Assembly: GCA_964016885.1 (NCBI GenBank)
Contig: OZ024741.1
Coordinates: 100,564,001-100,628,000 of the forward strand
Direction: 5' to 3'
DNA from: Eledone cirrhosa
Taxonomy: Eukaryota
DNA: 64,000 nt
The translations under genes were made by a program, and so were the position numbers. Positions 1-16,404 of the stretch are shown here, in pieces (within the stretch, counting starts at the first letter, position 1; every line of letters starts with the position of its first letter). Below the pieces are notes generated by a model, which saw only the letters and a list, made by a program, of their open reading frames with translations, was not told where the DNA came from and did not search any database.

Positions 1-1099
1 TTGTCGCTCTGTCTGTCGGTCTGTTCCTATGCGTTCTCTAACAGCTGGACCAAATCAAATCAAATTTTACAAGGTAATAAACCCCGGGGGTGTCAACATG
101 TAATTTTTATTTCATTTGGATTAAAACAATATAAGATTGTATCTAAAATATTATTTTTATAGTCAACTATAGTAAATCACCACGACAACAACAACGGACG
201 TCACATTTTCTATATGAGTGTGTATGTGTCTGTGAGTGTGTGTGTGTGAGTTTGTGCGTTCGTTATGTACGTTAGGCCTTAGAGAATTAAACACACACAC
301 ATCTACACAGACATACACATGATGTGGTGAGTGTAGACGTCACATTTTGTTTGTGTATGTGCCTGTCTTATTATATGTATGAGAATGTATGTTATATTGT
401 ATGTGTGTGTGAGTGTATGTGTGTGTGGGGTGTATGTGTTTTGACTGCCATAACGATATTTTCTTTAGTCAACTATAGTAAACCATCCCCACCCCCACGA
501 TGAAGTCACATTTTGTATATGAGAGTGCACACAGACAACTAATCACACACACATCTACATATACAAATGCATGTGTTATGACAGACAGGTGTGCGTATGT
601 GTGTGTCTGTCTTATTATATGTATGTGAGTGTATGTGAGTGTATGTGAGTGTGTATGTGTGTGAGAGTGTATATGTGTACGAGTGTGTGTGACAGTGTAT
701 GTGTGTGTGAATGTATGTGTATGTGAGTGTAGGTGTGTGTGAGTGTATGTGTGATAATTTTTTTTTTCATTTAGATTAAAACAATAGGACGTCACATTTC
801 GTATATGAATATGTGTCTGTGAATGTGTATTTGTGTGATCATTAGGTACGTTAAATACACACACACACACATCTACATATATATATGAATTACACAATGA
901 ATATTGTTTAGCCTAAGGTTCTCCAATATTCACAGATTCTCATTTCTAAATTATATTATCATTACAATTTTGATATTTAAAAAGTTAAATATATATATTT
1001 TGAAATAATTAGGAGAAAAAAAAACATATCTTCATATGTATTGTTTGCTAATCTGAATAAGAACAGCAGTATCCCGTTCAACGCCGGGTTATTCAGCTA

Positions 1100-1100
<1 letters not shown>
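1..1100 (+). mobile_element. Non-autonomous Helitron, 3' part (5' end just outside the window)
   Basis: Subterminal hairpin CCCG-ttcaacgc-CGGG (1073-1088), then CTAG (1097-1100) and (TA)n. The window opens with a GTCTGTC-type tract typical of Helitron 5' regions. Interior has degenerate ~300-bp repeats. Confidence 0.75.
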
Positions 1101-1142
<42 letters not shown>

Positions 1143-1147
<5 letters not shown>

Positions 1148-1211
1148 GGTGTCCAATTTTATATATAAACTTGTATAAAACTATCTAGTGATTTTGTAGA
1201 AACCCTGCATA
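1143..1211. mobile_element. Tiny Tc1/mariner-type MITE remnant
   Basis: TA-CAGGGTGTCC ... AAACCCTG-CA degenerate terminal inverted repeats next to (TA)n. Confidence 0.35.
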
Positions 1212-1544
1212 TCTATACATATATGTATACACACATATATATATATGAATATACTCTGCATTGAGAGAATTGGATGAATATCTACAGTTACATAAGTATT
1301 ATTATGTATGTAGATATCTGTATGCGGGTATATAACCGTCTGCATATGTATATGCGTGTATGACAATTTGTGTGTTTATTTCGGGAGATGTACTTCCATT
1401 TTTAATCCATCCTAAAACAGCTACATATAGTACGTAACTGGATTAGCACACACATATATATATATATAACGAAGGAGGTGTGGTAAGGAACCAGATGGAC
1501 CATAACGCATCAGAGTATACAATATTTAGGGCAGTAGAGTGGGT

Positions 1545-1678
1545 AATAGGTAAAGGTTTGACTCCGTCGGCAGAGCTCAACAGCCGTTCTCGACGGCTAT
1601 TTCTGGACTACTTAGTCCAGAAATAGCCGGTCAAAAACGGCTTGAGCTCTGCCGTCGGGGTCACACATTTTGCTATTT
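1545..1678. repeat. ~130-bp imperfect palindrome containing the 3' half of a hammerhead ribozyme on each arm
   Basis: GGCTATTTCTGGACTA-ct-TAGTCCAGAAATAGCC at the centre (~1595-1628). Flanking arms GGCAGAGCTCAA / TTGAGCTCTGCC. Confidence 0.85.
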
Positions 1679-1728
1679 ATATATATATATATATATAAGT
1701 GGTTACACAACAGTTAGTTCACCATACC

Positions 1729-1764
1729 GAGAACAATTGTTTCAACTTAGCGGATCCTCAGCTC
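1729..1764 (-). ncRNA. Minimal type I hammerhead ribozyme in the Penelope 3' pLTR
   Basis: Minus strand GAG-CTGAGGA-TCCGCTAAGTT-GAAA-CAATTG-TT-CTC: CUGANGA and GAAA cores, palindromic stem III (ACAATTGT), stem I GAG/CTC. Stem II is weakened in this copy. Confidence 0.65.
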
Positions 1765-1938
1765 TTAATGGACATGTTTATACGGAACAGGAAGGACAAC
1801 CGTACGAACGCGCATGTGCAGAAACCAGGTCACTTCACATAGGCAATACTAAATGCGCGCGAGAGGTTTAAGGGAGATAACTGCGAAAGTCCAAAAAGTT
1901 CTTAGCTGATAATAAAATGATGATGATGTTGTAATAAT

Positions 1939-2493
1939 TCAATCCGGAGCGTTGTAGTTATGCAAGAGGTGTTTCGAGACGTGTGGACAATGTGTGAAGA
2001 ATTAATTTCTCGTGTTTAGTCAATCACTATTGCATACTCTCTTTAGAATATTTATTCGTTCATCAAAACATAGTACACACGACGGATTTCCCCTTGCGTA
2101 TGGCTTGGACTTAGTGATGGCTTTACATTGAATGGAATAGTCTATACTTGAGTCCTTGAGGGACCATACGTGGCTCGCGAGTTTCGTGGATGAACGTCTG
2201 TCCCCGCGTACCAAAAGGTCGACTGGTGGTTCAGGCAACGTTCCTTAAATCGGCCCTCCGCCATGCCCACATAGGATTTGACTTCCTGTAGTTGGTTTGG
2301 TCTGTTGGAAGTGACCACAGCTTCATAAATTACAGCGGGTGTGTTGAATTGCTGTTGAAGATCACAAGCTTCGGGCTTACGACAAGAGCAGCCTGGTGGG
2401 GTGTTGGTCCTAGGGCTGCTACTGATGTGGGCCTTCATGTTCTTAGCGCAGGAGTATCCTAATTTTACTTCGTGTCGGTTAAAGATGGAGCGG
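1939..2493 (-). pseudogene. Degraded GIY-YIG endonuclease/Zn-finger C-terminus of a Penelope-like ORF
   Basis: VIY...YVG (GIY-YIG variant), catalytic R, E and N positions, Cys/His motifs. Frameshift near 2210 and in-frame stops (TGA, TAA) near 2002-2022. Confidence 0.85.
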
Positions 2494-2604
2494 TATTTAC
2501 ACCTCTCGCACGCATTTTAGTATTGCCTATGTTAAGTGACCTGGTTTCTGCGAATGCGCGTTCGTACGGTTTGTCCTTCTGTTCCGTATAAACCATGTCC
2601 ATTA

Positions 2605-2642
2605 CGAGCTGAGGATCCGCTAAGGTGAAACAATTGTTCTCG
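2605..2642 (+). ncRNA. Minimal type I hammerhead ribozyme in the inverted Penelope pLTR
   Basis: CGAG-CTGAGGA-T-CC-GCTAA-GG-T-GAAA-CAATTG-TT-CTCG: stem I CGAG/CTCG, short stem II, palindromic stem III, predicted cleavage after GUU. Confidence 0.75.
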
Positions 2643-2706
2643 AATTTGTGAACTAACTGTTTTGTAACCACTTCGTACCTAACTCGTCCCATGGACTGAG
2701 TTCTCT

Positions 2707-2906
2707 NNNNNNNNNNNNNNNNNNNNNNNNNNNNNNNNNNNNNNNNNNNNNNNNNNNNNNNNNNNNNNNNNNNNNNNNNNNNNNNNNNNNNNNNNNNNNN
2801 NNNNNNNNNNNNNNNNNNNNNNNNNNNNNNNNNNNNNNNNNNNNNNNNNNNNNNNNNNNNNNNNNNNNNNNNNNNNNNNNNNNNNNNNNNNNNNNNNNNN
2901 NNNNNN
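2707..2906. other. Assembly gap (200 N) next to a (CT)n microsatellite
   Basis: Run of N flanked by CT repeats (2907-3056). Confidence 0.99.
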
Positions 2907-2972
2907 CTCTCTCTTTCTCTCTCTCTCTCTCTTTCTCTCTCTCCCTCTCATTCTCTCTCTCTCTCCCTCTCT

Positions 2973-3056
<84 letters not shown>

Positions 3057-3614
3057 AAAGATTTAGTGATGTAAATAACTTTATCATTATAAAACTTGTG
3101 TTGGGAACATTCAACAATATGGTCATTGCATAAATCTATGATGATAGCTAAAGATATTTTTGTACCATAGAATCTGTTGTGGGTCTTTGATTGGCTTAGT
3201 ATCAGCCAGTTAATCAAGTGACTATTCCCCTTTGCAGTGCTTTCTATCCTTTAGTCTCCAGTCCCTGCTCTCTCTCTCTTTCTCCCTCTCTCTCCCTCCC
3301 TTTCTCCCTCTCTCTCCCTCTCTCCCTCAATATAATATAAAAAGGACTTGTATACTTTTTAGCTACTTTTATCACATGCTGACCTCTTACACTGCAGTTT
3401 AAATTAGGCAGTTTACTGTGACTTCAAACTTAGCAACATTGTTAAATAAAATGGTAGTGTAACTGATTAACCCCTTCATTAATATATTTCTAATGAAATA
3501 CACTATTTATGTGTTTCAAATGTTAAAAATAAAGAATTAGGAGGATTTTAATAACAATTTTTTTTTTCATCGTTTTAATCTTGTATTTGTAATATAACTT
3601 GAAAGTTTCTTCCA

Positions 3615-3745
3615 TAAGGTGGTTTAGTGGTTAGAGAATTGGATTCACAATTGTGAGGTTGTGACTTTGATATCTTGACCAGGCAATGTGTTCTATCCTT
3701 GAGCAAGATACTTTATTTCATGTTGTTCTTTCTGCCAGGAGTTGA
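3615..3745 (+). mobile_element. tRNA-derived SINE, family B (degraded)
   Basis: TGGTTTAGTGGTTAG A-box-like head and CCTTGAGCAAGATACTTTATTTCA body. Homologous to 39565, 43241, 61892. Confidence 0.65.
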
Positions 3746-5037
3746 AACCAGTAGATAGTATGATCAATGGAAACATTGTTTTCTTGGTCCGATTTGACAA
3801 ACTCCAACTTACTTAGTAAGCGAATAAGGTTTGAGATCTTTTTGATCGATAGGGGGGGGGGGGGGAATATGATGGTAGGTTTTAGTATGAATGAGTAAGG
3901 ACATTTATGCCTTACCAACAGAAGGAAAATACCTTGAAGGAGCACTCGGCATGATAAATGTCAATACAAATGTGTTTTTTTTTTGTTTTGTTTTTTTTTT
4001 GTTTCTTCATAACCATTTTCATACCAACTGTGTTTTAGCTGAGATTATTTTTGCAATTAAGAGACAAGAAGAAACAAGCAAGGGAGATAAATTCAATTAT
4101 AATATCAGCTAATCCAAATATTTGGAAAACAAAAACATATTGTCATGCTAGTGATTCATATTTTTGTTGTAAATCTTGTGTTTCAACAATCTTGTCTTTC
4201 AATTTCTAAAGAGCTTGATGAAATAAGTGCAGGATATTCTATATGTATATTTGTATGAATGTCTGCATTCATTTATGCGTTTGAATCTATGTATCATCAT
4301 CATCTAACATCTATCTACCACGCTAGCAATGTTTATGTATATATGTGTTTGTGTGTGAATATAGGTATGTATATATGCATGTGGAAAATGATATGAGGTG
4401 CATTAAAGCAAAACTTCAATCACTGCCATTTGTTTTCTTTGAAAAATAAAGCCTATTCCCTGCTCATATGTATGGAGAGCATACTCAGCTAATATTTGAC
4501 AGTTTCTGTGTATGATTTTACATAAACATCTTATATATATTATAGACAGAGAGAGAGGGAGGGGGGTTGGAAATAGCACTGAAAATATATTTAAGGATCT
4601 ATTTTTCTTCTTTTTTTTTTTCTTTGATTTGTCAGTGACATTATTGAAAAAATGCGAGGAAAATTCTTTTAAAAAAAGAGTTTTATAATGTATATAAAAT
4701 ATATATTTTTTGACGAATCAAAGAAGAAAAAAAGCAAAACAGATCCAATTCCACCTTTTCTCTATAACCCCTGCTTTTTATAGAACGTTACTCCCTTTTC
4801 AAATATACACCTTTTCCCTATCACCGCATTTTCTCTATCGTATTTTCTTAAACAAAACATATCTTGTATTTTCGTTTATTGTTAAATTATGCCCAAAATA
4901 CGGCGATCTTATCTTAAACCTTACATTCACGCTAACAACCCATCATCCCTCCCTCCCGCCCCCACGCACCACCATTATTACGTGGACCAATCATAAGTCA
5001 GAGGCCCATACTATCGCTTAACTGTTAGCTTTTCGAT

Positions 5038-8000
5038 ATGATGGATGGACTACGGAATTCTGGAGAGTTGAAGAGAGAAAAATGTGGACGCTCAGCGACA
5101 ATGCCAAAGATAAAGCCAAATTCACCTCGTGGACGAGAATGCAAGCACTCCTCCTTGTTTCGGCCCAGGATGGCTAACATAACCCCATCCCCCCCCGCGC
5201 CCCACTGCTCCCACCCTCCAAACGCAATCCAAAACTTCAGAGTTGGTACCATGAATGTAGGCACCCTAAAGGGTCGCTCTAACGAGGTTGTAGAAATGCT
5301 TGAACGTAAGGAGGTCGATGTTTGTTGTATTCAAGAGACCAGGTGGAGGGGAGGGTCGGCTAGATTCATCGTGGGTAAAGAACGATGCTATAAGCTTTTG
5401 CTTTTCTGGGTGGGAAATGACAATGGGTTGGGTGGGGTAGGAATCATGGTAGCAGAAAAGTGGGCAGATAAGATAATAGACGTAAATAGAGTGAACGACA
5501 GAATAATTAAAATAAGACTTGTCCTCAATAAAACTACGGTGACAGTAATATCTGCGTACGCACCCCAATCCGGACTGCCCGGCGCTATAAAAGACAGATT
5601 CTACGAGACACTGATGCTCGCTACCTCCCAAATAACCGACAGTGACTATATAGTTATTGCAGGCGACCTAAATGGTCACGTTGGACAACATTGTGACGGC
5701 TATGACGGAATCCATGGAGGCTATGGGTTCGGTACTAGAAATGAGGAAGGCTCCAGAATCCTGGAATTCTGCGACGCAAATAACTTAACTATCTGTAACA
5801 CTAACTTCAAAAAACGAGACAATCACTTGATCACCTATAGATCGGGGGAACACACAAGCCAGGTAGATTATATCCTTACCAGAAGACGTGACAGAGTGTC
5901 TGTTGTTAACACTAAATCCCACCCCCATGAAGAATTCACCTCCCAACATAGACTGATAATTAGCGACCTCATAGTCAGGACGAGACGTACTAGACAGCGG
6001 AAGAGGACTATCCTCAGGAGAAAAATATGGAAGCTAAAGGACCCCATAGCCAGAAATAAATTTCAAAGCATATTACTTGACGCTTTCGACAGTAAGGAAG
6101 AGCAATTGGAGTCGTATAATATAGAGGAACAGTGGGAATTCCTGAGAGCAAACCTGCTGACGGCGGCAGACGAAGTCTGTGGCTGGAGCAGGCCTATAGG
6201 TAGGAGGAGAGTAACATGGTGGTGGAACAGTAAGGTGGAGGAGTCAATTAAGGCCAAAAAGCAGGCTTGGAAAGTATGGCGGGATGGGGGAAGTAGAGAA
6301 GACTATCAAGTGGCCAGGAGGGAAGCTAGGAGACAAGTGTACTTCGCAAGAAGGGAAGCAGAGGAAAGAAAGTTCAAGCATGTTCTACAACGTGAGGACC
6401 AAAAACGTGAGGTGTTCAGGATTGCCAGGCAATGTGTCAAGGAAAACCGTGATATTGTCGGGGAGAAGTGTGTACTTAACGATGATGGCATACTTGCCAT
6501 CACCGACGCTGATAAGAAGGTAGCTTGGAAGTGTCACTACGAAAGGCTTCTAAATGAGGAGAACAAATGGGAGAAAGACAGTCTCCCCCAGATCGATCCA
6601 ATAGAGGGACCAGCAGTGTTAGTTGAAGGTAGTATAATAAGTAAGGCAATCAAAGATATGAAGACGGGTAAGGCGGCTGGGCCTTCGGAAATAGTTGCTG
6701 AGATGCTGAAGGCATCTGGTTCGGTGGGACACACCATGGTCACCCGGATAGTTAACCAAGTCGTACAGAATGGGGTTGTTCCGAAGGAATGGCGTAGCAG
6801 CATCATCGTTAACTGCTATAAGGGAAAAGGAGATGCCCTAGATAGGAGTAACTATAGAGGCATTAAATTAATCGACCAGGTCATGAAGGTCACGGAAAAA
6901 GTAATAGCGCAACTAATCAGAGAGAGAATTGATCTAGATGAAATGCAGTTCGGGTTTGTGTCAGGCAAAAGTACCACAGACGCTCTTTTCATTGTACGAC
7001 AACTACAGGAGAAGTACCTAGCTAAAAGTAAACCCCTATACTTAGCTTTCGTCGACTTGGAGAAAGCCTTCGACAGAGTCCCCCGTTCCATTATCTGGTG
7101 GTCTCTTAGAAAACTAGGTGTTGACGAATGGCTTGTGAGAGCTATACAAGCTATGTATAAAGAAACAGTCAGTAAGGTTAGAATTAACAACGAATATAGT
7201 GAAGAGTTTAGCGTAAAAGTTGGTGTCCATCAGGGCTCTGTTCTTAGCCCCCTACTATTTATTATTGCCCTTCAGGCTATAACAGAGGAGTTCAAGACCG
7301 GCTGCCCATGGGAACTCCTATACGCAGATGATCTAACGCTCATAGCTGAATCAATGGCCGAGCTAGAGAAGAAATTCCAAACATGGAAGCACGGCCTAGA
7401 ATCAAAAGGCCTTAAAATTAACCTGGCTAAGACTAAAGTTCTAGTTTGTAGGAAAGAAAATAAGGCGGCGGTCCCATCTGGGAAATGGCCATGCTCAGTG
7501 TGTAGCAAAGGCGTAGGTAGAAACTCCATTTTATGTCCCAAATGCAAAGTATGGGTGCATAAAAGATGTAGTGGGATCACAGGTAAGCTAACTAAGAACA
7601 TAGATTTTACATGTGGCCGGTGCTCTGGTGCAATAAGTAGCAGCAAGTGCCCACAAAATACTAGCTCCTTCAACTGCGCAGAGGGTTCTATAGAAATAGT
7701 GGACAGCTTCCGTTATCTGGGTGACAAAATCAGCAGTGGGGGAGGGTGCTCTGAAAGTACAGTAGCTAGAGTCAGAACTGGATGGAAAAAGTTCAGAGAG
7801 CTTATACCACTATTAGCCGCTAGAGGGTTCTCCCTAAAAATGAAAGGCAGGTTATACGATGCCTGCATACGAACAGCAATGCTGCATGGCAGTGAGACCT
7901 GGGCATTGTGTGCAGAGGATATACGCAGACTAGAGAGGAACGAAGCTTGCATGCTCCGCTGGATGTGCAATAGTAATATACGTGAACGGCAAAGCATAAA

Positions 8001-8277
8001 CGAACTAAGGAAAAAATTAGAAATAAGAGGGATCAGATGTTGTTTACTCGAGAGAAGGCTACGTTGGTACGGTCACGTGATGCGCATGAAAGACGACAGC
8101 TGTATAACAAAGTGTAGGGCAATAAAGATAGACGGTAGCCACGGAGTAGGCAGACCCAGAAAAACATGGGACGAGCTGATAAATTCCGACCTCACACGCT
8201 TACACCTCTCCAAGACAATGTCACTGGACCGAGACCTTTGGCGGTACTCAGTAATAGAGAAGACCCGCCTTACCTAA
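5038..8277 (+). CDS. RTE LINE ORF: APE endonuclease, reverse transcriptase and inserted PHD-like Zn finger (1079 aa, uninterrupted)
   Basis: APE motifs GTMNVGTL, CCIQETRW, AYAPQ, GDLNGHVG, QVDYIL, SQHRL. RT motifs YRGIKL, QFGF, FVDLEKAFD, GVHQGSVLSPLLF, YADD, FRYLG. Finger CSVC..CPKC..WVHKRC..CGRC. RTE C-terminus RRLRWYGHVMR..GRPRKTW. Confidence 0.97.
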   Translation: MMDGLRNSGELKREKCGRSATMPKIKPNSPRGRECKHSSLFRPRMANITPSPPAPHCSHPPNAIQNFRVGTMNVGTLKGRSNEVVEMLERKEVDVCCIQETRWRGGSARFIVGKERCYKLLLFWVGNDNGLGGVGIMVAEKWADKIIDVNRVNDRIIKIRLVLNKTTVTVISAYAPQSGLPGAIKDRFYETLMLATSQITDSDYIVIAGDLNGHVGQHCDGYDGIHGGYGFGTRNEEGSRILEFCDANNLTICNTNFKKRDNHLITYRSGEHTSQVDYILTRRRDRVSVVNTKSHPHEEFTSQHRLIISDLIVRTRRTRQRKRTILRRKIWKLKDPIARNKFQSILLDAFDSKEEQLESYNIEEQWEFLRANLLTAADEVCGWSRPIGRRRVTWWWNSKVEESIKAKKQAWKVWRDGGSREDYQVARREARRQVYFARREAEERKFKHVLQREDQKREVFRIARQCVKENRDIVGEKCVLNDDGILAITDADKKVAWKCHYERLLNEENKWEKDSLPQIDPIEGPAVLVEGSIISKAIKDMKTGKAAGPSEIVAEMLKASGSVGHTMVTRIVNQVVQNGVVPKEWRSSIIVNCYKGKGDALDRSNYRGIKLIDQVMKVTEKVIAQLIRERIDLDEMQFGFVSGKSTTDALFIVRQLQEKYLAKSKPLYLAFVDLEKAFDRVPRSIIWWSLRKLGVDEWLVRAIQAMYKETVSKVRINNEYSEEFSVKVGVHQGSVLSPLLFIIALQAITEEFKTGCPWELLYADDLTLIAESMAELEKKFQTWKHGLESKGLKINLAKTKVLVCRKENKAAVPSGKWPCSVCSKGVGRNSILCPKCKVWVHKRCSGITGKLTKNIDFTCGRCSGAISSSKCPQNTSSFNCAEGSIEIVDSFRYLGDKISSGGGCSESTVARVRTGWKKFRELIPLLAARGFSLKMKGRLYDACIRTAMLHGSETWALCAEDIRRLERNEACMLRWMCNSNIRERQSINELRKKLEIRGIRCCLLERRLRWYGHVMRMKDDSCITKCRAIKIDGSHGVGRPRKTWDELINSDLTRLHLSKTMSLDRDLWRYSVIEKTRLT

Positions 8278-8439
8278 ATACAAAGTAAAAACCTACTACA
8301 GTCAGTAGGCATCTCTATCAAAACACACCCCCGTCCCTCCACCCCACCCACACCGCCCCTTTCAATGTAAAGTTATGTTGGTCCCACAACATCCAGGCCG
8401 AAACAAATGAGATCGTGTAGGTGTCACGACAAAAAACAC

Positions 8440-8671
8440 ACAGTCCACGCTGTAAATGTGGCCGTGTAGGCAACACGGTAAAAACCTCCCAGCCCCACAC
8501 TGTAAATGTGGTTGGTGTTAGGAAGGGCATCCAGCTGTAGAAAACCCGCCAGACAGTCCACGCTGTAATGTGGCCGTGTAGGCAACACGGTAAAAACCTC
8601 CCAGCCCCACACTGTAAATGTGGTTGGTGTTAGGAAGGGCATCCAACTGTAGAAAACCCGCCAGACAGTCC
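8440..8671 (+). repeat. ~113-bp tandem duplication in the RTE 3' UTR
   Basis: Two near-identical units bounded by ACAGTCC at ~8440, 8553 and 8665. Confidence 0.95.
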
Positions 8672-9028
8672 TATGCGAGCAAGACAACCACTCTTGCCTC
8701 AAGTGGGAAAACCCCCGTCCAAACCCATGCAAGCGTGGAACACGGACGCTAAACCTGATGATGATGATGATGATGATGACACATACACAATGGCAATTGG
8801 TTTATTTTCTCTTCTAAATACAATTTGGCCTTTATGTCATGCATGTCAAAATCTATGATAAAATAGTTTGTTATTGTATATATTTATGTCAAACATCTGC
8901 TGGCTATCTTAAGACCAATAATAGAAATAATGCTAATAATAATGATATTGGTGGTGGTGGTATATAATAATGATAAAGTAGATGGTATTGATGTAACCAA
9001 TCTAAATATGCTTCTTAGTGGACCACAT

Positions 9029-9170
9029 CCCATGGTCTAAGATGAGAAGCATTCTTGTCCTTTCTCCTATTAAGATCATTCTATAGTGTTCATAACTGTC
9101 CTATGGTCTAAGATGAGAAGCATTTTTGTCCTTTCTCCTATTAAGATCTTTCTATACTGTGCATAACTCT
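9029..9170. repeat. 71-bp tandem duplication
   Basis: ATGGTCTAAGATGAGAAGCATT..CCTATTAAGATC at 9032 and 9103. Confidence 0.9.
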
Positions 9171-10338
9171 CCTTATTCTGTGTCAAGGATTTACCAGATA
9201 ATTCCTGATAATTCTTGCAATGTTTCTACTCCTGAATTCAGGTCTAGTTTTCCAATGTTGAAAGGTGTTGTTGCTGCTGTATCATGTGCTTGTTTTTCCT
9301 TATAGCCAAATTATTTTTCACTCTATTTATCATCAAATCAAAAATCTAAAACCTTCAGAATTGATGAAAATGACAGTATAAGACCTATATGTGCAGATCA
9401 GTCACTGGAAATGAAGAATATACACTAAGAGAATGTGTGTGTGTCTGTATGCTCATACAACAAAAACGTAAAAGTGTAGTTTATTGTTTATTTATGATAT
9501 AAACAAGGATTACATTCCAGTTTATCTCATACATAAATCTCTCTTTCTTTCTCTCTCTCTCTCCTCTTTCTCTCTCTTCTCTTTCTTCTCTCTCTCTCTC
9601 TCACACACACTCATATAGATGTTCCATGTAAGCTGATTGGTGTTATTCAAAGATCCCTGCTACAGATAATGATTCACTATTCTTACTGACTTGGAAAAAA
9701 AATGGCTAGAAGACACACACACACACACATACATACACCACACAGGCATGTGTGTGCTCATGTATATCAAATGGATGTTATATAGCTACTCCAAGCATCC
9801 AGAGCTAATAAGAAAGTTCCACACACATAGATACACCCACCCACTCACCCATTCTATCTGCATTTCACTTACTGGTTGATTTGGCTTTAAAGGGGCTCCC
9901 CAGCAAGTTTGTTTATATGCTTAGACAGACCTACCATGCTCCCACTTTACTCTGGCTCTTAATAAGCTGGCTTCACTCAGACCACCAGGGGCCTTGTGCC
10001 ATACTTAAGATAACTGAAGTAGTGGTAGTCTTTTACCTCCCACACAGACAATCACTCAGATAAGCAGGAAGTTATCCTTTTATTTAGAATAAACATTTCA
10101 CTTTACCCCCCCCCCCCAACCCCCTCTCTCTCTGTCCCAGTTATTTTAATCTGTACCTTAACTTTTCAAGTACAATTGATTATTGCCACTCAAACCTGGT
10201 GATGAAAAGCTACCCCTGACAAGATAATCAGTTGTATGTATAAATGTGTGTGTGTGTGCGTGCGTGTGTAAGATTAAGAGTGGTTCTCCAAATAGGCAAG
10301 TTAAATAAGATATTGAATATGTTAAGTAGAGAAGCTAC

Positions 10339-10476
10339 ATAATTTATCTCATACAGAAATGAATTCTGCAGGACATGAACTGCTTCATTCGTTTGAAATC
10401 ATCTAGGCTTTTCTGGTGATTTCAAATAACTGAAACAGTTCTAATCCTGTAGACATTACTTCTATATGATAATTAT
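10339..10476. repeat. ~140-bp diverged palindrome with a degenerate HHR core on each arm
   Basis: TCTGCAGGA..GAACTGCTTCA..TTTGAAATCA versus TGATTTCAAA..TGAAACAGTTC..TCCTGTAGA. Confidence 0.75.
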
Positions 10477-10499
10477 ACTTTTTTGTTTCTTGTTTTCCT

Positions 10500-10835
10500 C
10501 ACTCTTTCTATTTCTTTTTATATTTTTAATTCTGTCAGCTGATGAAGGCTAGTAGTGTCCAAAACGTTAAGACTCTTTTCCTAGTGTATCAAACTAATAT
10601 CTATCTTCATTGTACTGTATTGTTTGGCATGTTGTTTCCATTTGCTTTTTGCATACACACACACACACCTTTCTATTTCATCTTTTATTTCTCATTCTAT
10701 CTTCTGATGAAGTACTAGTGTCTGAAACGTTAAGACACCTTTTCTATTATTTTAAGTGTTAAACTAATATATTTCTTCATTGTACTGTGTCGTTGCTTTG
10801 TTATTTCTGTTTATTTTTTACACACACACACACAC
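10500..10835 (+). mobile_element. Two tandem copies of a ~165-bp element with a minimal HHR-like core and (CA)n tail
   Basis: CTGATGA at 10539 and 10704, each followed by a short stem, (G/A)AAACGTTAAGAC and a shared AAACTAATAT..TCTTCATTGTACTGT tail. Third copy at 58280-58450. Confidence 0.7.
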
Positions 10836-10947
10836 GTTATAAAGAGTCGGGTCCCTGTCTCTTTATAATATAATCACACTCTACTACCCCAAGTATTGAG
10901 TACTCTGTTGAGTAATGGTCTAACCAGTTTCAAACTGAATTCATCCT

Positions 10948-10986
<39 letters not shown>

Positions 10987-11093
10987 CATACATACATATA
11001 TACATACACACACCAGGATCCTGTCTCTAATTATGTACTCCTGAAGCCTGACACAGCAACATTTTTTTTTTTTCTTTTTTTTTTTCAGGGTCA

Positions 11094-11280
11094 CCACTTT
11101 TAACAGAAATGTGTGGTTGATGTGTATATATATATTTTAAAGGAGCATTTCACACTTATATACTCCTCCGTCTTAGCAGTATTATATAGATGTAGTAGTC
11201 CTATTATAATTACCAGTTTAGCAGAGTTATGAAATGCTCCTCTTAAATATATACATCAACCATTCTTACTGCTAAAATGG
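11094..11280. mobile_element. Fold-back/MITE-like element with ~65-bp terminal inverted repeats
   Basis: TGGTTGATGTGTATATA..AAGGAGCATTTCA versus TGAAATGCTCCT..TATATACATCAACCA. Confidence 0.75.
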
Positions 11281-11309
11281 ACTTTAGTTTTTGTTTTTCC
11301 ATTATTTAT

Positions 11310-11820
11310 TAACAAAGGTTGAGCTGAGTAGAGCTGACATGCCAAGAGAAATAAAACAAACGAATTAAGATTTCAGAAAGGCTGCAAGAGAGATCTTCCG
11401 AGCCAACGCGAGAATTTTTCCCTTAGGGCACGTAGAGATACATTCTCCTCCCCTGGCGGTCATTGGCTGGGCTGAGCCAAATAACGCACGGAGAATGTAA
11501 ATGTGCCCGCAGAATGTAGGTCACTACAAGCTTTCCCCTTTTCTATATAAAGCGTAAAACTAATAAGACTTTTTGTACCTGTTTGTTGTCTCCTTGAACA
11601 ATATATATTCCTCTCTTTATTGTTCTCTTGTTTGTTCACCTGTCTCTCTTTCTCCACCCAATTCTTTTTATCCCAATAACTTATTTTAGTTATTGTTCGC
11701 GCTAGCCGGAGACATTTGGTCTTTAATGCGAAGAAATACCTATCATGGCTAGTAGATCACTGATGATGGATAGACCTATTTCTAATTCTTCATTTTAATT
11801 TGTATATCACATTTGCAACA
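11310..11820 (+). mobile_element. Possible solo LTR or promoter-like CpG-retaining insert
   Basis: Higher complexity and CpG content than flanks, ATTGG box (~11462), CTATATAAAG TATA (~11543), ends ..TGCAACA. No matching 5' TG or TSD identified. Confidence 0.3.
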
Positions 11821-11853
11821 CAGCACGCCATTTTTCATTTATATATATATATA

Positions 11854-12108
11854 CTAGCAGAAGTACCCGGCGTTGCCCAGGTGTAAGTCGACCTTTGGTC
11901 TGTTAGAATGTGTGAAAGTTACTTCCCACGCATCACAGGTTAAAAACTTCGAACTTCAATGAAAAAAGATAGGTTAGTAGACGCAGGTGTGTAATTTATT
12001 AATTGTAGTTACACAGTGTATCGTTGAAATTGTTCTCTGCACGACTGACGGAAGTCAAAATCGCTTGATATTGAATGTTCAGTTAATTTAAAGCAGGGTG
12101 AAAATGTC

Positions 12109-12146
<38 letters not shown>

Positions 12147-14155
12147 TTTTTGCGCTCACATGTGCAGAAGAAGAATTAAAAGGGCCTTTATCTTAACCGC
12201 GGCATAATGGCGAGTCTTTTGTGACAGTTTTTAAGAATATCGGACGTTCCTGTAAAAAGTTTTTCCATGTGTAACTTTGCCTTGTTTTTTTGCGCAAAGT
12301 CGAGCCCCGCTTCAGTTTTATTGATTTTTTTTTACATCAATGCGTGATCGCTGAAGTAGATTTGAGTAGCTAAAAACCTGTCCCGGTAAATTTGCTCTAG
12401 GTGAAAAAAAGTTGATCACAATTGTATCTAGGGTTATTGCCCTTTGCAACAGCCTCAACGTGTCTTCAAGTATGGTTTGTTAATTTGCTGTGGAACTAAA
12501 TCTACTTTCGTCAAATTGGACCGAGGAATCAATGTTTCCATTTCTCTTTCTAGCTAGTGTACCCGGATACACACGGATTTATAAGGCGCTGGATTTAAAT
12601 AAATGAAGAACAAACGTTTCCTTTTGTGCTCCTATCTGTGATATTGGTATTTTGAAAAAATAGTCCACAAACATCCATGGAGCATGTGTAACGCATGTAT
12701 CAGGTTATGAGAAAAAGGGTTTTCGATTCTCCATACATAAGATACCAAAAAATTACACGCAAATAAAACGGAATTTTAAGGCACTGCCCAATTCATAGCT
12801 GAAAGGTAAGAATCAAGTGGAATAATGTTTTGCGACATTGTCAAATGTACAACCGTACAAAAGCAAAGGATATAGCCATTGAAACTAGGTAGACCAAAGA
12901 ATTTGGTGGTGTTGTATATCACAGGATTGTTTCCCAAAGTGAAATTAGGTGATTGTAGTCGGTGTTGTATAAAAAAATAAAAGCATACGGAAGATTGAAC
13001 ACTTACGAATTAAGTGAAAATCACGTTGATATTCCTATCGGAGCAAAATGTGCCGAAAAACATGACGGATTGTTGTGTCAATATTGAAATCGTAGAAATT
13101 GCGAATCCCGACCTATAAGATATAATGGCTAGGCCTTGGAGGTGAAGGGGAAGAATTGGTATAATTGTTTTGCTGAACATTTTGACCATTAATTTAAATA
13201 GACATGCGGTTTGGTTGTTTATGACCTAGAATGAGGGCCGGTTAAACGCGGCAGAAAAATAAGCCATGCTGATGATGTTTAGGGGCGTCGCAGGGAATAG
13301 ATGAGGAGTTGTGAGTCAATTGTGAGGACAGTGGATGGCATGTTGATCGCTTTAGAAGACGCGATGCTACACAGGATGCTTCTCGGCCAAAATGTGTGCA
13401 CGTGTGCGCAATTAATTGCAAATACGCTCATAACATTTAGTCGTAAGCAGAACAAAAAATGCCATTAGAGGTGGGCTAATAATGGAGACACAAACCCTGG
13501 TGAACTTACGTTTAAACACCCGAAAAGTTACTCACTTCCTGTGCAAAAGACTAACAGTAGTATTATAAATTAAATAATTTTTTAGAACCTTTTGTTTAAA
13601 AAAGGAAAACATTGGATACGGACGTAACATTTTTTACAACTTTGTATGTGTACAATACAACTTGGTCAACGTATTATTTAGTAATTTTTTTTTTCAAAAA
13701 GCATGATTATTTAAGACTGTTTGAAAATTTACTCACAGCTTTTAGCATCACAAAAGACACCATTAAATTTGGTTCCATTTTCAGATAGGGATAATACTGT
13801 ATTTCCACTTGAATAAGGTGGAATATGAAAAGATAAACTCTTTAATGGTCGGTCGTTTACTGAGACAGCTGGCCGTCCAATCAATAACGCACGTCCTTAT
13901 ATGGGCATATGAAATTTATTTTTATTGCGCCAGATGTAAACTAAGAGTTCTTGTGTTCGAATTCACATAAAATTTCATTGGAATCGAAAAACATTGTCAT
14001 AGGGCCCGATTATCGATTTTTCGAAAATTTCAAGTAGCCTATTCCACTCTACGCGTTGAGTTTTATATATGTGTGAGGTTTCATGAAAATTGGATGAACG
14101 GTGTAGCATGCAAGTTCGGAACACGAAACAATGCCTATCTTCACTTTATATATAT
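11854..14155 (-). mobile_element. Non-autonomous Helitron (~2.3 kb) in (TA)n
   Basis: Minus-strand 3' end CCTGGGCAACGCCGGGTACTTCTG-CTAG at 11854-11881. Minus-strand 5' end TATATATAAAGTGAAG near 14140-14155. CpG-retaining non-coding interior. Second CTAG+hairpin end at 12550-12576. Confidence 0.75.
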
Positions 14156-15242
14156 ATATATATGAAAAGTAATTAACAACAAGGAGTACAGTTACGAAAG
14201 GTGTTAGGTATTAGGTTCACGCTTGATATATATATTTGTATCTATGTTTCTATATTGTTCATATGAAGAGTAGCAAAGAATCATTCTCTCCACCCTGTAT
14301 CAGTTCTTGTTCTGGCCACACTGATATTGCAGTAACCTAAAGAAGTAATTAGGCAACTTCAAGGAATGGTAAATTAATTAATTAAGGAAATAATAGGCAA
14401 AACATAGTTGCCAATAAAAGAACATCAAAATCTAATTAATAGGTAGCCCTGGAATAAGAAATAGTTCTGTTACATCTCTTAAACAACAGACATATCTATA
14501 TTGCCCTAAAGAATGCTTGGACTAGATTTTTTTCTTTTCTCTATATCCACACTCACTCACTCTCTCTCTCTCTCTCCTTCTATTTTTCTCCCCCTCTCTC
14601 TTTTCCCTCTCTTTCTCCCTCTTGTCTCTGTCTCCCCCCTCTCTTTCATTCCCCTCTCTCACTCTCCCCTTTTCTCTTTTTCTTTCTCTCCTCTCTCACT
14701 CTCCCTCCCTCTCTCTCCTGATAGTAATGTCTTTTAACTTTTCTGTCAAGATTAATAATATAATGTAATCATTAGAGGTTTTTATTCCTTTGTATCTTTA
14801 GGTTAGTATTGCTAAGTTCTTATCGAGACATTTTAATTAAATCTTCTTTTGAAGTTATACTTATTTCAAACCCACTTAGAAAACTTGTTTTGAATGTTTC
14901 CACCGAATGTTTTTTTTCTTCTTCTTCTTTTTTTAGTAATTTTATTGTTTCTTTGGTTTATAATATTTCTGCCCCAGTTTATTGGAGTTTCATTCTTCAC
15001 CTGGTATCAGCTTTACATCTTTTCTAGAAACATATTTGTTGTTTGTTGTTTCGTTTGGAACTATGTAAATGGCCTTTGTAGTTTTTAGTCAAGATCTTTC
15101 AAACCACTGTTGTCTTTAACTATGGCAGACTTTCTTTTGAAAATCTTGTGGAGGTATTTGTTATGGAGTGGTTTTACTCTCCAATTTATTTTTTCTTTGT
15201 TATATTTTTGATTTCTGGTATTTCTTTATTATTATTATTATG

Positions 15243-15499
15243 CCCTTGTGCCAAAAGTAGAAACAATTATTATTATTATAGTCCGAGTTCAAATCCCACC
15301 GAGGTTAACTTTGCCTTTCATTTTTACGGGGTCGATAAAATAAAGTACCAGTAATACACTGCGATAATTGCTGGCCTTGTGCCAAAGTAGAAACAAATTC
15401 TGCCAAGATTAACTTTGCCTTTATTCCTTACGAGGTCGATAAAATAAAGTACCAGTAATACACTGGGATAATTGTGCCAAAAGTAGAAACAAATTATTA
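15243..15499 (+). mobile_element. Tandem 3' fragments of tRNA-SINE family A
   Basis: GAGTTCAAATCC B-box, TTAACTTTGCCTTT..GGTCGATAAAATAAAGTACCAG twice, TGTGCCAAAAGTAGAAACAA tail three times. Confidence 0.85.
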
Positions 15500-15720
15500 A
15501 GTGCTGTTCGTTGGCAGAATCAGGAGGGCAGCAAACAATATGCTCTGCTTCATATCTTTAACTTCCTTAGTGATGATGATCATGATGATGACGATATTGT
15601 TTGCTCTCATTACATATCAATCAATCACATTTATTAATTTTTACATGAAGCTACATATCATCACATCACTCAGTGACTTTTGTAATCTCTATATACATAT
15701 ACTTGTTTTATTAAAGCTAG

Positions 15721-15822
15721 ATAGTGAGTCTTGTCACTGTGGATTTTTCCCCTGTTTATTACAGGGTCTTCAGATGACCCTGTGATAAACAGGCGAAACT
15801 CCGGAGTAACAAGACTCACTAT
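15721..15822. ncRNA. 102-bp palindrome of two head-to-head hammerhead motifs overlapping at the catalytic core
   Basis: Plus: CAGATGA-CCCTGT-GATAA-ACAGGC-GAAA-CTCCGGAG-TA. Minus: CTGAAGA-CCCTGT-AATAA-ACAGGG-GAAA. Outer arms ATAGTGAGTCTTGT / ACAAGACTCACTAT. Confidence 0.75.
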
Positions 15823-16404
15823 TTAACCTTAATAAAATGAATATTAAAACTTTACTTCGGTATTGAGTACTCTAGTCTCTCAGCCATCAACCATATATAT
15901 GTGTGTGTGTATATATATATACATATATATATATGTATATGTATGTGTATATATGTATGTATGTATGTGCAAAGACGACACACAAATTCTTGAAGCGTTC
16001 CATTTTTTTTTTTTTTTTTACAAGAGTGGTGCCCCAGCATGGCCTCAGCCAGATGGCTGGAACAGGTAAAAATGTATGTGTGTGTGTATTCATGTGTGAG
16101 TATGTATGAGTGTATGCATGTGTATGTATAAAACAGCTTGAAAATGTTTTTATTTGAAATTGCTTGCTTCTGTTCAGCTTTTGTTACTCTGAGACCAAAC
16201 AAAACAATTCACATCTATTATTTATTATTTTTACTTCTTTCACTGCTTTCACTGAGTCACTGCTAGTGTTTATATGTTTAATATCTATTTATTGTTGTAA
16301 CTATGTGAATGAGAGAGAGACCAGCAGGACTTGATAAAGAGTGAAGAGAATACCACAGCTTCAGAATTAGAATTTGTTTATATGCTAAATGTAATATTAT
16401 TGCT

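What the first reader, a model, noticed from the sequence alone, without database searches (positions are those of the whole stretch)
1545..15822. Recurrent class: unrelated palindromes whose symmetry axes all fall in or beside an HHR
Seen: three sequence-unrelated 100-140 bp inverted repeats (1545-1678, 10339-10476, 15721-15822) are centred on HHR stem II, just 5' of CUGAUGA, and within CUGANGA, respectively. Established: Penelope pLTRs carry minimal type I HHRs and often occur inverted. Inference: a ribozyme-anchored fold-back process produces miniature rod-like hairpin elements with HHR motifs in both polarities, superficially like viroid-type RNAs. This is the best candidate here for an undescribed non-autonomous retroelement system.
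Basis: partly seen in the sequence, partly recalled or inferred. Interest (0 to 1): 0.75.

Follow-up and report, generated by a model that had tools for sequence, protein, structure and literature searches.

The report
Penelope run-off palindromes, not ribozyme-anchored
These three short DNA mirror-images are real and belong to families with hundreds to thousands of copies, but they are pairs of short jumping-gene ends joined head to head (one family traced to a Penelope-like element, the other two likely so), likely made anew at each insertion when two copying enzymes run off the start of the RNA about 30 bases after a TATA-like box, not a self-replicating viroid-like element cut by its ribozyme.

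Summary
The three palindromes exist (E 6e-29, 1e-6, 5e-30) and are multi-copy: 10,740, 371 and 343 exact arm matches. Each is a short arm plus a long arm from a retroelement 3' end, joined head to head. Family 1 traces to a 3.1-kb Penelope-like element with Hydra-clade motifs; no ORF link was shown for families 2 and 3. All three parents carry a predicted type I hammerhead (family 1: U3-A8 variant), but no window copy keeps a whole ribozyme. Arms stop at a sharp boundary 41-47 nt upstream of the predicted cut and 30-31 nt after a TATA-like box. In family 1 only 3 of 122 arms end at the cut. Core-to-boundary distance differs (-45, +7, +9); other families' axes lie up to 114 nt from the core. 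All 27 scored junctions differ, and the short arm reaches further 5' in 21 of 52, so neither clonal copying nor simple fold-back fits. Best reading: twin priming with run-off at the RNA 5' end. ORF-bearing copies pass the boundary (10 of 10), implying a second template class. The layout is published, and this scan reached a similar reading on other DNA.

The parts
1466..1610 (-). P1 long arm: element 3' end from boundary position -1 to the long end (+141), reading outward into (TA)n at about 1454-1467
   Evidence: BLAST to family reference, 88%, E 2e-45
1611..1611 (.). P1 junction (1 inserted base); junctions differ from copy to copy
1612..1678 (+). P1 short arm, -2 to the short end (+61), followed by (TA)n; holds stem II 3' strand, mutated GAAA box, stem III and the predicted cut 1656|1657, but no core box 1
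   Evidence: 91%, E 2e-19
10300..10403 (-). P2 long arm (10351-10403 by BLAST; extension to about 10300 read from the alignment, with a decayed shared tail motif)
10406..10467 (+). P2 short arm from boundary position 0: stem I 5' strand, decayed core 10413-10419, GAAA 10432-10435, predicted cut 10451|10452
   Evidence: 79%, E 1e-9
15706..15774 (-). P3 short arm, +8 to about +76; core reads CTGAAGA from 15773, stem III and cut triplet damaged
   Evidence: 87%, E 1e-17
15770..15897 (+). P3 long arm, +8 to +136: core CAGATGA 15771-15777, stem II, GAAA 15795-15798, predicted cut 15808|15809, shared tail motif near 15860, then TA/TG repeat
   Evidence: 92%, E 1e-49

Best explanation
Each palindrome is a short arm and a long arm of a retroelement 3' end joined head to head (family 1 from a Penelope-like element with Hydra-clade motifs, families 2 and 3 likely so), and it likely forms anew at each insertion when both cut strands of a (TA)n target prime reverse transcription at two fixed internal sites and both copies run off a fixed RNA 5' end, predicted to be the transcription start. 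SHOWN: two fixed 3' ends per family (P1 +61/+141, P2 about +62-72/+128 or more, P3 +83/+139); short-plus-long pairing; a sharp 5' boundary; a TATA-like box 30-31 nt before it; unique junctions with overlaps or small inserts; both arms usually carry the same sequence variant; both arms share the same fate (both stop at the boundary or both pass it). INFERRED: twin target-primed reverse transcription by a dimer (in line with the in vitro Poseidon data); boundary = start of a capped RNA; host end-joining of the two cDNA ends; a second, boundary-free template class (circular or read-through tandem RNA) that yields the long and full-length copies. The axis lies near the hammerhead only because the predicted start site does in these three families.
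For: P1 long arms sampled by a pattern 3' of the cut: 34 of 70 end in -3..+12, hazard 0.088/nt at -3..+2 against 0.002-0.009/nt at +9..+80; 1 of 70 at the cut, 0 at the core. P2: 45 of 68 in -3..+12, 2 in -19..-4; P3: 36 of 67 and 0. TATWWAW at -31, -30, -30, with one other hit in 1,176 nt of upstream reference. 52 of 70 P1 long arms have an adjacent inverted partner; 41 of 52 partners end exactly at +61, the rest at 52-71, none at the long end. Long end followed by ATAT in 45 of 62. Junctions 27 of 27 distinct; overlap 21, blunt 7, insert 24. Both arms share a variable 10-mer in 20 of 32 parsed pairs, shuffle mean 8.1, maximum 14. Partners pass -20 in 2 of 51 stopped insertions against 18 of 19 ORF-bearing ones (p 1e-13). 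Parent ORF with RT, CxCX5C linker and GIY-YIG-like domain. PMC11167929 (parts 1-2 of 4 read): both strands cut and extended, two internal RT starts bounding the tail, hammerhead cleavage not needed, predicted dimer.
Against: No full-length copy ends at the boundary: 10 of 10 ORF-spanning arms that reach the 5' pLTR pass it (-36 to beyond -400), against 41 of 53 terminal arms that stop (p 5e-6). A single linear RNA starting at 0 therefore cannot explain everything. The start site is inferred from DNA alone. TATTTAT is a non-canonical TATA; the three families are related, so not independent; and the P2 zero was chosen after I saw the spacing. The only tested Penelope promoter is internal and TATA-less (PMC2377424, passages). 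In another family, the two copies with apparent upstream sequence show no TATA at -30 by eye. The YAGT at or near the boundary also reads as a splice acceptor. No ORF link was shown for P2 or P3. In 12 of 19 pairs with a minority variant the arms differ.
Confidence: 0.65

Rival explanations
1. Same twin-primed insertion, but the boundary is not a transcription start: it is a reverse-transcriptase stop set by RNA structure or bound protein, or a processed end at a 3' splice acceptor (YAG|T).
For: In P2 and P3 the boundary lies at or 3 nt before the 5' end of hammerhead stem I; in P1 it lies in the apical stem II helix. YAG|T occurs at +2 (P1, P3) and -2 (P2). In D. virilis the intron end maps to helix I (PMC4209133, part 2 read). 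Three of 10 full-length arms end at -36 to -39, the base of stem II.
Against: The structural context differs between families while the TATA offset is constant. Long cDNAs pass the same sequence freely (10 of 10). 30 of 30 long P1 copies are continuous across the boundary with no intron removed. Several P1 arms include bases 5' of the AG.
Confidence: 0.2
2. One reading: hammerhead cleavage or folding anchors a fold-back, giving rod-like mini-elements with ribozymes on both strands that spread as their own non-autonomous family.
For: Axes of P2 and P3 lie within about 10 nt of the core (30 of 68 and 19 of 67 arms end within 3 nt of C3). The copies are predicted rods and abundant.
Against: No enrichment at the cut; P1 boundary 45 nt from its core; other families mostly 39-114 nt away; short arm reaches further 5' in 21 of 52; 27 of 27 junctions unique; no complete ribozyme in any window arm; continuum with kb-long insertions.
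Confidence: 0.04
3. The minis are what is left of long head-to-head insertions after the centre was deleted by cruciform or hairpin repair in the genome.
For: Long near-perfect palindromic insertions exist (L211; L493, 4.7 kb at 98.7%), and the junctions show microhomology and small inserts.
Against: Deletion gives no reason for a sharp, one-sided boundary at a family-specific base reached separately by each arm.
Confidence: 0.06

Closest known systems
Insertion unit of endonuclease-positive Penelope-like elements: direct pLTR, adjacent inverted 5'-truncated copy, one-sided tail (PMC3846280 parts 1-3 of 5 read; PMC8557442 passages; PMC2377424 passages)
   Same: Head-to-head inverted pLTR pair, extension on one arm only, microsatellite targets, hammerhead in the pLTR, partial tandems in full-length copies.
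   Different: Here the commonest product is a minimal two-arm insert of about 200 bp with no ORF; the tail is about 56-80 nt rather than 30-40; 5' ends pile up at one base. I found no account of that boundary in the passages read or in searches.
Hydra clade of C-terminal EN+ Penelope-like elements (PMC8557442, passages)
   Same: P1 parent has an RWR (RWK-type) motif, DKT, a CxCX5C linker, CxxC and CxH motifs in the endonuclease, and (TA)n insertion.
   Different: Its predicted hammerhead has the U3-A8 core and a long interrupted stem II, whereas the paper reports canonical hammerheads; no tree was built.
Poseidon of Anolis in vitro (PMC11167929, parts 1-2 of 4 read)
   Same: Both strands cut and extended, two internal RT starts bounding the tail, starts lie downstream of the hammerhead, cleavage dispensable.
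   Different: Different clade; second-strand joining and 5' run-off were not examined in the parts read.
Non-LTR retrozymes (PMC7229834, search listing only; bioRxiv 10.64898/2026.07.22.740005 part 1 of 5 and passages)
   Same: Non-coding, pLTR-related, type I hammerhead ancestry.
   Different: Retrozymes are head-to-tail tandems with a whole ribozyme in each unit; these are head-to-head, have broken ribozymes and are not copied as units.
L1 twin priming and LTR minus-strand strong-stop DNA (both recalled, not read here)
   Same: Two primers on one RNA give an inversion; priming near the RNA 5' end gives a short run-off cDNA.
   Different: Both primers start at fixed pLTR sites, so the product is an inverted duplication; priming is by target DNA, not tRNA.

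Membership tests
EN+ Penelope-like element (P1 parent) | Single ORF with RT and C-terminal GIY-YIG endonuclease | tested here: met
   ORF pieces in L211; Atlas hits RT/HTH_animal 0.96 and GIY-YIG cluster 0.95; Pfam GIY-YIG only E 0.069, below cut-off, and no Pfam RT hit; the copies inspected are frameshifted
EN+ Penelope-like element (P1 parent) | Partial tandem forming a direct 5' pLTR | tested here: met
   12 of 30 copies holding the ORF 5' part run into an upstream pLTR; unit about 3,123 nt
EN+ Penelope-like element | Adjacent inverted 5'-truncated copy | tested here: met
   52 of 70 terminal P1 arms and 19 of 30 ORF-bearing arms
EN+ Penelope-like element | One-sided tail (30-40 bp in the papers) | tested here: inconclusive
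   One-sided extension present in all three families but about 56-80 nt long
EN+ Penelope-like element | Type I hammerhead motif in the pLTR | tested here: met
   P1 and P2 parents fold as three-way junctions at minimum energy; P3 forms stems I and II with a short stem III mispaired. P1 position 7 varies (A17/C11/T2 of 30) while the other core columns are 28-30 of 30. P2 stem I covaries between subfamilies
EN+ Penelope-like element | Self-cleavage of the hammerhead | not testable with these tools
   Needs in vitro assay
EN+ Penelope-like element (P2, P3) | Contiguity with an RT/EN ORF | tested here: inconclusive
   0 of 7 extended P2 copies had an ORF hit; 2 of 7 P3 copies had one upstream, but one belongs to a separate element and the other is not shown contiguous
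Hydra clade | RWK and DKT motifs, CxCX5C linker, CxxC and CxH in the endonuclease, (TA)n targeting | tested here: met
   Read by eye in translations (RWR, DKT, CNC-5-C, CNLC, CKH) against PMC8557442; ATAT after 45 of 62 long ends
Hydra clade | Phylogenetic placement of the RT | not tested
   No reference sequences were fetched
Non-LTR retrozyme | Head-to-tail tandem units each with a complete hammerhead | tested here: not met
   Head-to-head pairs, no complete ribozyme in window copies
Non-LTR retrozyme | Circular RNA accumulation | not testable with these tools
   Needs RNA data
MITE or other clonally copied palindromic element | Symmetric termini and a shared internal sequence across copies | tested here: not met
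   Arms end at different sites; 27 of 27 junctions distinct
Viroid-like ambisense hammerhead RNA | Complete hammerhead in both polarities | tested here: not met

The most novel reading that the evidence does not exclude
These Penelope-like elements use an LTR-like cycle. A TATA-driven capped RNA is primed 60 and 140 nt from its 5' end, so the default product is a strong-stop-like run-off pair, and only RNAs converted to a boundary-free form (cut at both hammerheads and circularised) give long copies. In family 1 the start site splits the ribozyme, so the 5' site could be cut only by pairing with the core half carried at the 3' end of the same RNA. The roughly 200-bp palindromes would then be a mass-produced fossil of the first step of Penelope transposition and a genome-wide source of double-stranded RNA.
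Probability: 0.3. Interest if true: 0.7.

Novelty: new variant of a known kind. Interest (0 to 1): 0.42.

Why it matters
How Penelope-like elements form tandem and inverted inserts, and what their hammerhead does, is called open in PMC8557442 and PMC11167929. Thousands of minimal inserts map the two priming sites and one hard 5' stop to the base and show that both arms share a template class. That turns the question into direct tests: map capped ends, look for cut-to-cut circles, run twin priming in vitro. They also seed the genome with short hairpins (185 short-spacer palindromes in about 1 Mb of repeat-rich flanks) that would form double-stranded RNA if transcribed. As a new viroid-like element system the finding does not hold.

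Tried and rejected
Rfam scan of the window: no hammerhead family among 106 matches at E up to 1, nearly all microsatellite look-alikes of miRNAs. Global inverted-repeat listing was swamped by dispersed repeats. Pfam gave no hit at E 0.01 for the two parent ORF pieces and PDB sequences none at E 1 for the RT piece. I first called the parent Neptune-like from recall and corrected it to Hydra-type. First concordance test failed on a pattern error and was redone, parsing 32 of 98 loci. Extension of 6 P2 and 6 P3 long copies did not link them to an ORF. TATA test in other families was inconclusive for lack of upstream copies. A type II permuted hammerhead using the upstream GAAAC of P3 was considered and dropped: no stem I. 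Rows changed before counts: P2 dropped L169, L396 and P3 dropped L196, L208, L431 as duplicates; four P1 values (L266, L271, L280, L286) were taken from BLAST where the extension stopped at an internal deletion; 5 of the 7 P1 ends at -8..-4 look like mirror-alignment artefacts and were left in. P2 and P3 patterns span the cut site, so only their partner arms test it, and partner mapping there is fragmentary. Samples are the first listed exact matches on contigs C1-C2, about 70 of 343-9,781 per family. Supplements were not read; Repbase entries and the supplements of PMC8557442 and PMC11167929 may describe these families or the boundary.
Full report
OBSERVATION. Self-BLAST confirms palindromes at 1545-1677, 10349-10469 and 15706-15837 (E 6e-29, 1e-6, 5e-30), here P1, P2 and P3. 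The window lies in a 3.0-Gb AT-rich genome, G000. Searches with each palindrome gave 2,219, 723 and 948 candidates, of which 40 each were scored. Exact arm patterns occur 10,740, 371 and 343 times, with 0 for reversed controls; a P1 tail pattern occurs 9,781 times. They are not single-copy accidents.

ANATOMY. Alignments of 19, 28 and 25 copies show one plan: a short arm, a variable centre and a long arm, with ends usually running into (TA)n or (CA)n. The long arms of all three share CTCTACT..GTATTGAGTAC, so the families are related. Non-palindromic copies reveal the parent sequence upstream of the centre. Each family has two fixed 3' ends: P1 +61/+141, P2 about +62-72/+128 or more, P3 +83/+139, counted from the boundary defined below.

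PARENT. P1 continues upstream through a 3' UTR into an ORF with an RT, a CxCX5C linker and a GIY-YIG-like domain. Atlas hits support both domains; Pfam support is weak. Copies with a direct 5' pLTR give a unit of about 3,123 nt with RWR and DKT motifs. These match the Hydra-clade description in PMC8557442 (passages); no tree was built. For P2 and P3 no ORF link was shown; they are assigned by layout and shared motifs.

RIBOZYMES. P2 and P3 parents carry type I motifs with CTGATGA and GAAA boxes, and P2 stem I covaries between subfamilies. The P1 parent has no CTGANGA but has TTGANAA. Position 7 varies (A17, C11, T2 of 30) while the other core columns are 28-30 of 30, and the region folds at minimum energy into a three-way junction with single-stranded core boxes. 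This is the U3-A8 variant reported for Schistosoma elements (PMC4209133, parts 1-2 of 4 read). Activity is untested. None of the window arms keeps a whole ribozyme, and all six strands fold as rods of -50 to -87 kcal/mol.

WHERE ARMS STOP. I mapped 5' ends in the first listed exact matches. P1, sampled by a pattern 3' of the cut: 34 of 70 long arms end in -3..+12, 1 within 3 nt of the cut (+41), 0 at the core (-45); partner arms 34 of 52 and 2 of 52. P2: 45 of 68 in -3..+12, 2 in -19..-4. P3: 36 of 67 and 0. The P2 and P3 patterns span the cut, so only partners test it: 0 of 30 and 1 of 37. From the boundary, the core lies at -45, +7, +9, the cut at +41, +46, +47, and a TATWWAW box at -31, -30, -30; only one other such box occurs in 1,176 nt of upstream reference. 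The P1 and P3 zeros were set before I noticed the box (note), the P2 zero after. In about 1.04 Mb of fetched loci, which are biased to repeat clusters, 185 further palindromes lay away from the search targets. 33 had an outward canonical hammerhead; in the largest other family the core lay 10-114 nt from the axis (11 of 16 scored, 10 of them at 39 or more) and in another 57-70 nt (3 of 4). An axis in or beside the core is therefore family-specific, not a rule.

HOW THE ARMS ARE JOINED. 52 of 70 P1 long arms have an inverted partner; 41 end exactly at the short end, the rest at 52-71, none at the long end. The short arm reaches more than 8 nt further 5' in 21 cases, the long arm in 11. A long cDNA folding back on itself cannot give the first class, and a short cDNA cannot template the long tail. 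All 27 scored junctions differ, with overlaps in 21, blunt joins in 7 and inserts in 24. Both arms share a variable 10-mer in 20 of 32 pairs against 8.1 after shuffling (maximum 14), although only 7 of 19 pairs with a minority variant agree. ORF-bearing insertions L211, L245, L247 and L249 follow the same short-plus-long rule.

RESULT AGAINST A SIMPLE MODEL. Among 30 copies holding the ORF 5' part, 10 reach the upstream pLTR boundary and all 10 pass it, against 41 of 53 terminal arms that stop there (p 5e-6). Partners pass -20 in 18 of 19 ORF-bearing insertions and in 2 of 51 stopped ones (p 1e-13). There seem to be two template classes, and both arms of an insertion use the same one.

MECHANISM. 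Inferred: an endonuclease-RT dimer cuts both strands of (TA)n, and each end primes at one of two internal UAU-ending sites. On a linear RNA that begins at the boundary both cDNAs run off and the host joins them, giving the mini palindrome. On a circular or read-through RNA they run on, giving long and tandem copies. In vitro, Poseidon cuts and extends both strands, starts at two internal sites bounding the tail and does not need cleavage (PMC11167929, parts 1-2 of 4). I put Penelope origin with head-to-head joining at about 0.95, two separately primed cDNAs at 0.85, and the whole statement at 0.65. The D. virilis promoter is internal and TATA-less (PMC2377424, passages), so the start-site step is the weakest.

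KNOWN VERSUS NEW. An inverted truncated copy next to the pLTR, a one-sided tail and microsatellite targets are published (PMC3846280 parts 1-3 of 5; PMC8557442 passages). Searches returned no paper whose parts I read describes a fixed run-off boundary or twin priming for these elements; many journals and all supplements were outside what I saw. PMC5625713 (passages) links palindromic repeats to RNA editing in general. Earlier unreviewed notes of this scan give a similar twin-priming or run-off reading on other DNA; my reading was noted before that look-up, and they are not independent support. Added here: the cut-site and fold-back tests, the TATA offset, the two template classes and the U3-A8 ribozyme split by the boundary.

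VERDICT. A real and abundant class and a variant of a known insertion type. The ribozyme-anchored, viroid-like reading is not supported. Interest 0.42.

Noticed in passing
window 1699-1880 (-) and about 2525-2670 (+), core CTGAGGA at 2609: A fourth hammerhead-bearing family in head-to-head layout with a spacer, inserted in the same (TA)n run as P1; short palindromic copies of it occur in L003 and L294.
   Followed up: partly
window 10837-10930: 32-bp hairpin followed by a P1-type tail (89% over 48 nt): a related subfamily joined far downstream of the boundary.
   Followed up: partly
window 10539, 10704, 58306: Minimal hammerheads of the CTGATGA..GAAACGTT type without a palindrome; the first has a mutated GAAA box.
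   Followed up: no
window 5029-8277 (+): 1,082-aa open frame of an APE-type LINE with a PHD finger inside the RT region.
   Followed up: no
L493:1-4728: A head-to-head Penelope-like insertion forming a palindrome of at least 4.7 kb at 98.7% identity, from a different family (38% protein identity to the P1 parent).
   Followed up: partly
L467, L478, L487: Three of 10 full-length P1 arms end at -36 to -39, at the base of ribozyme stem II and just upstream of the TATA-like box; small sample.
   Followed up: no
tail of P1, P2, P3 (window about 1514-1540, 15860-15872): Conserved GTA-TTGAG-TAC mini stem-loop between the two 3' ends: a candidate protein-binding site.
   Followed up: no
P1 parent, just after +141 (L465, L469, L480, L482): A pyrimidine-rich stretch ending in AG precedes the ORF start and looks like a splice acceptor, hinting at a 5' UTR intron as in other Penelope-like elements.
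   Followed up: no
flanks of L001-L462: 185 short-spacer palindromes in about 1.04 Mb, 119 with a TA or CA repeat at one end; many families are unassigned.
   Followed up: partly
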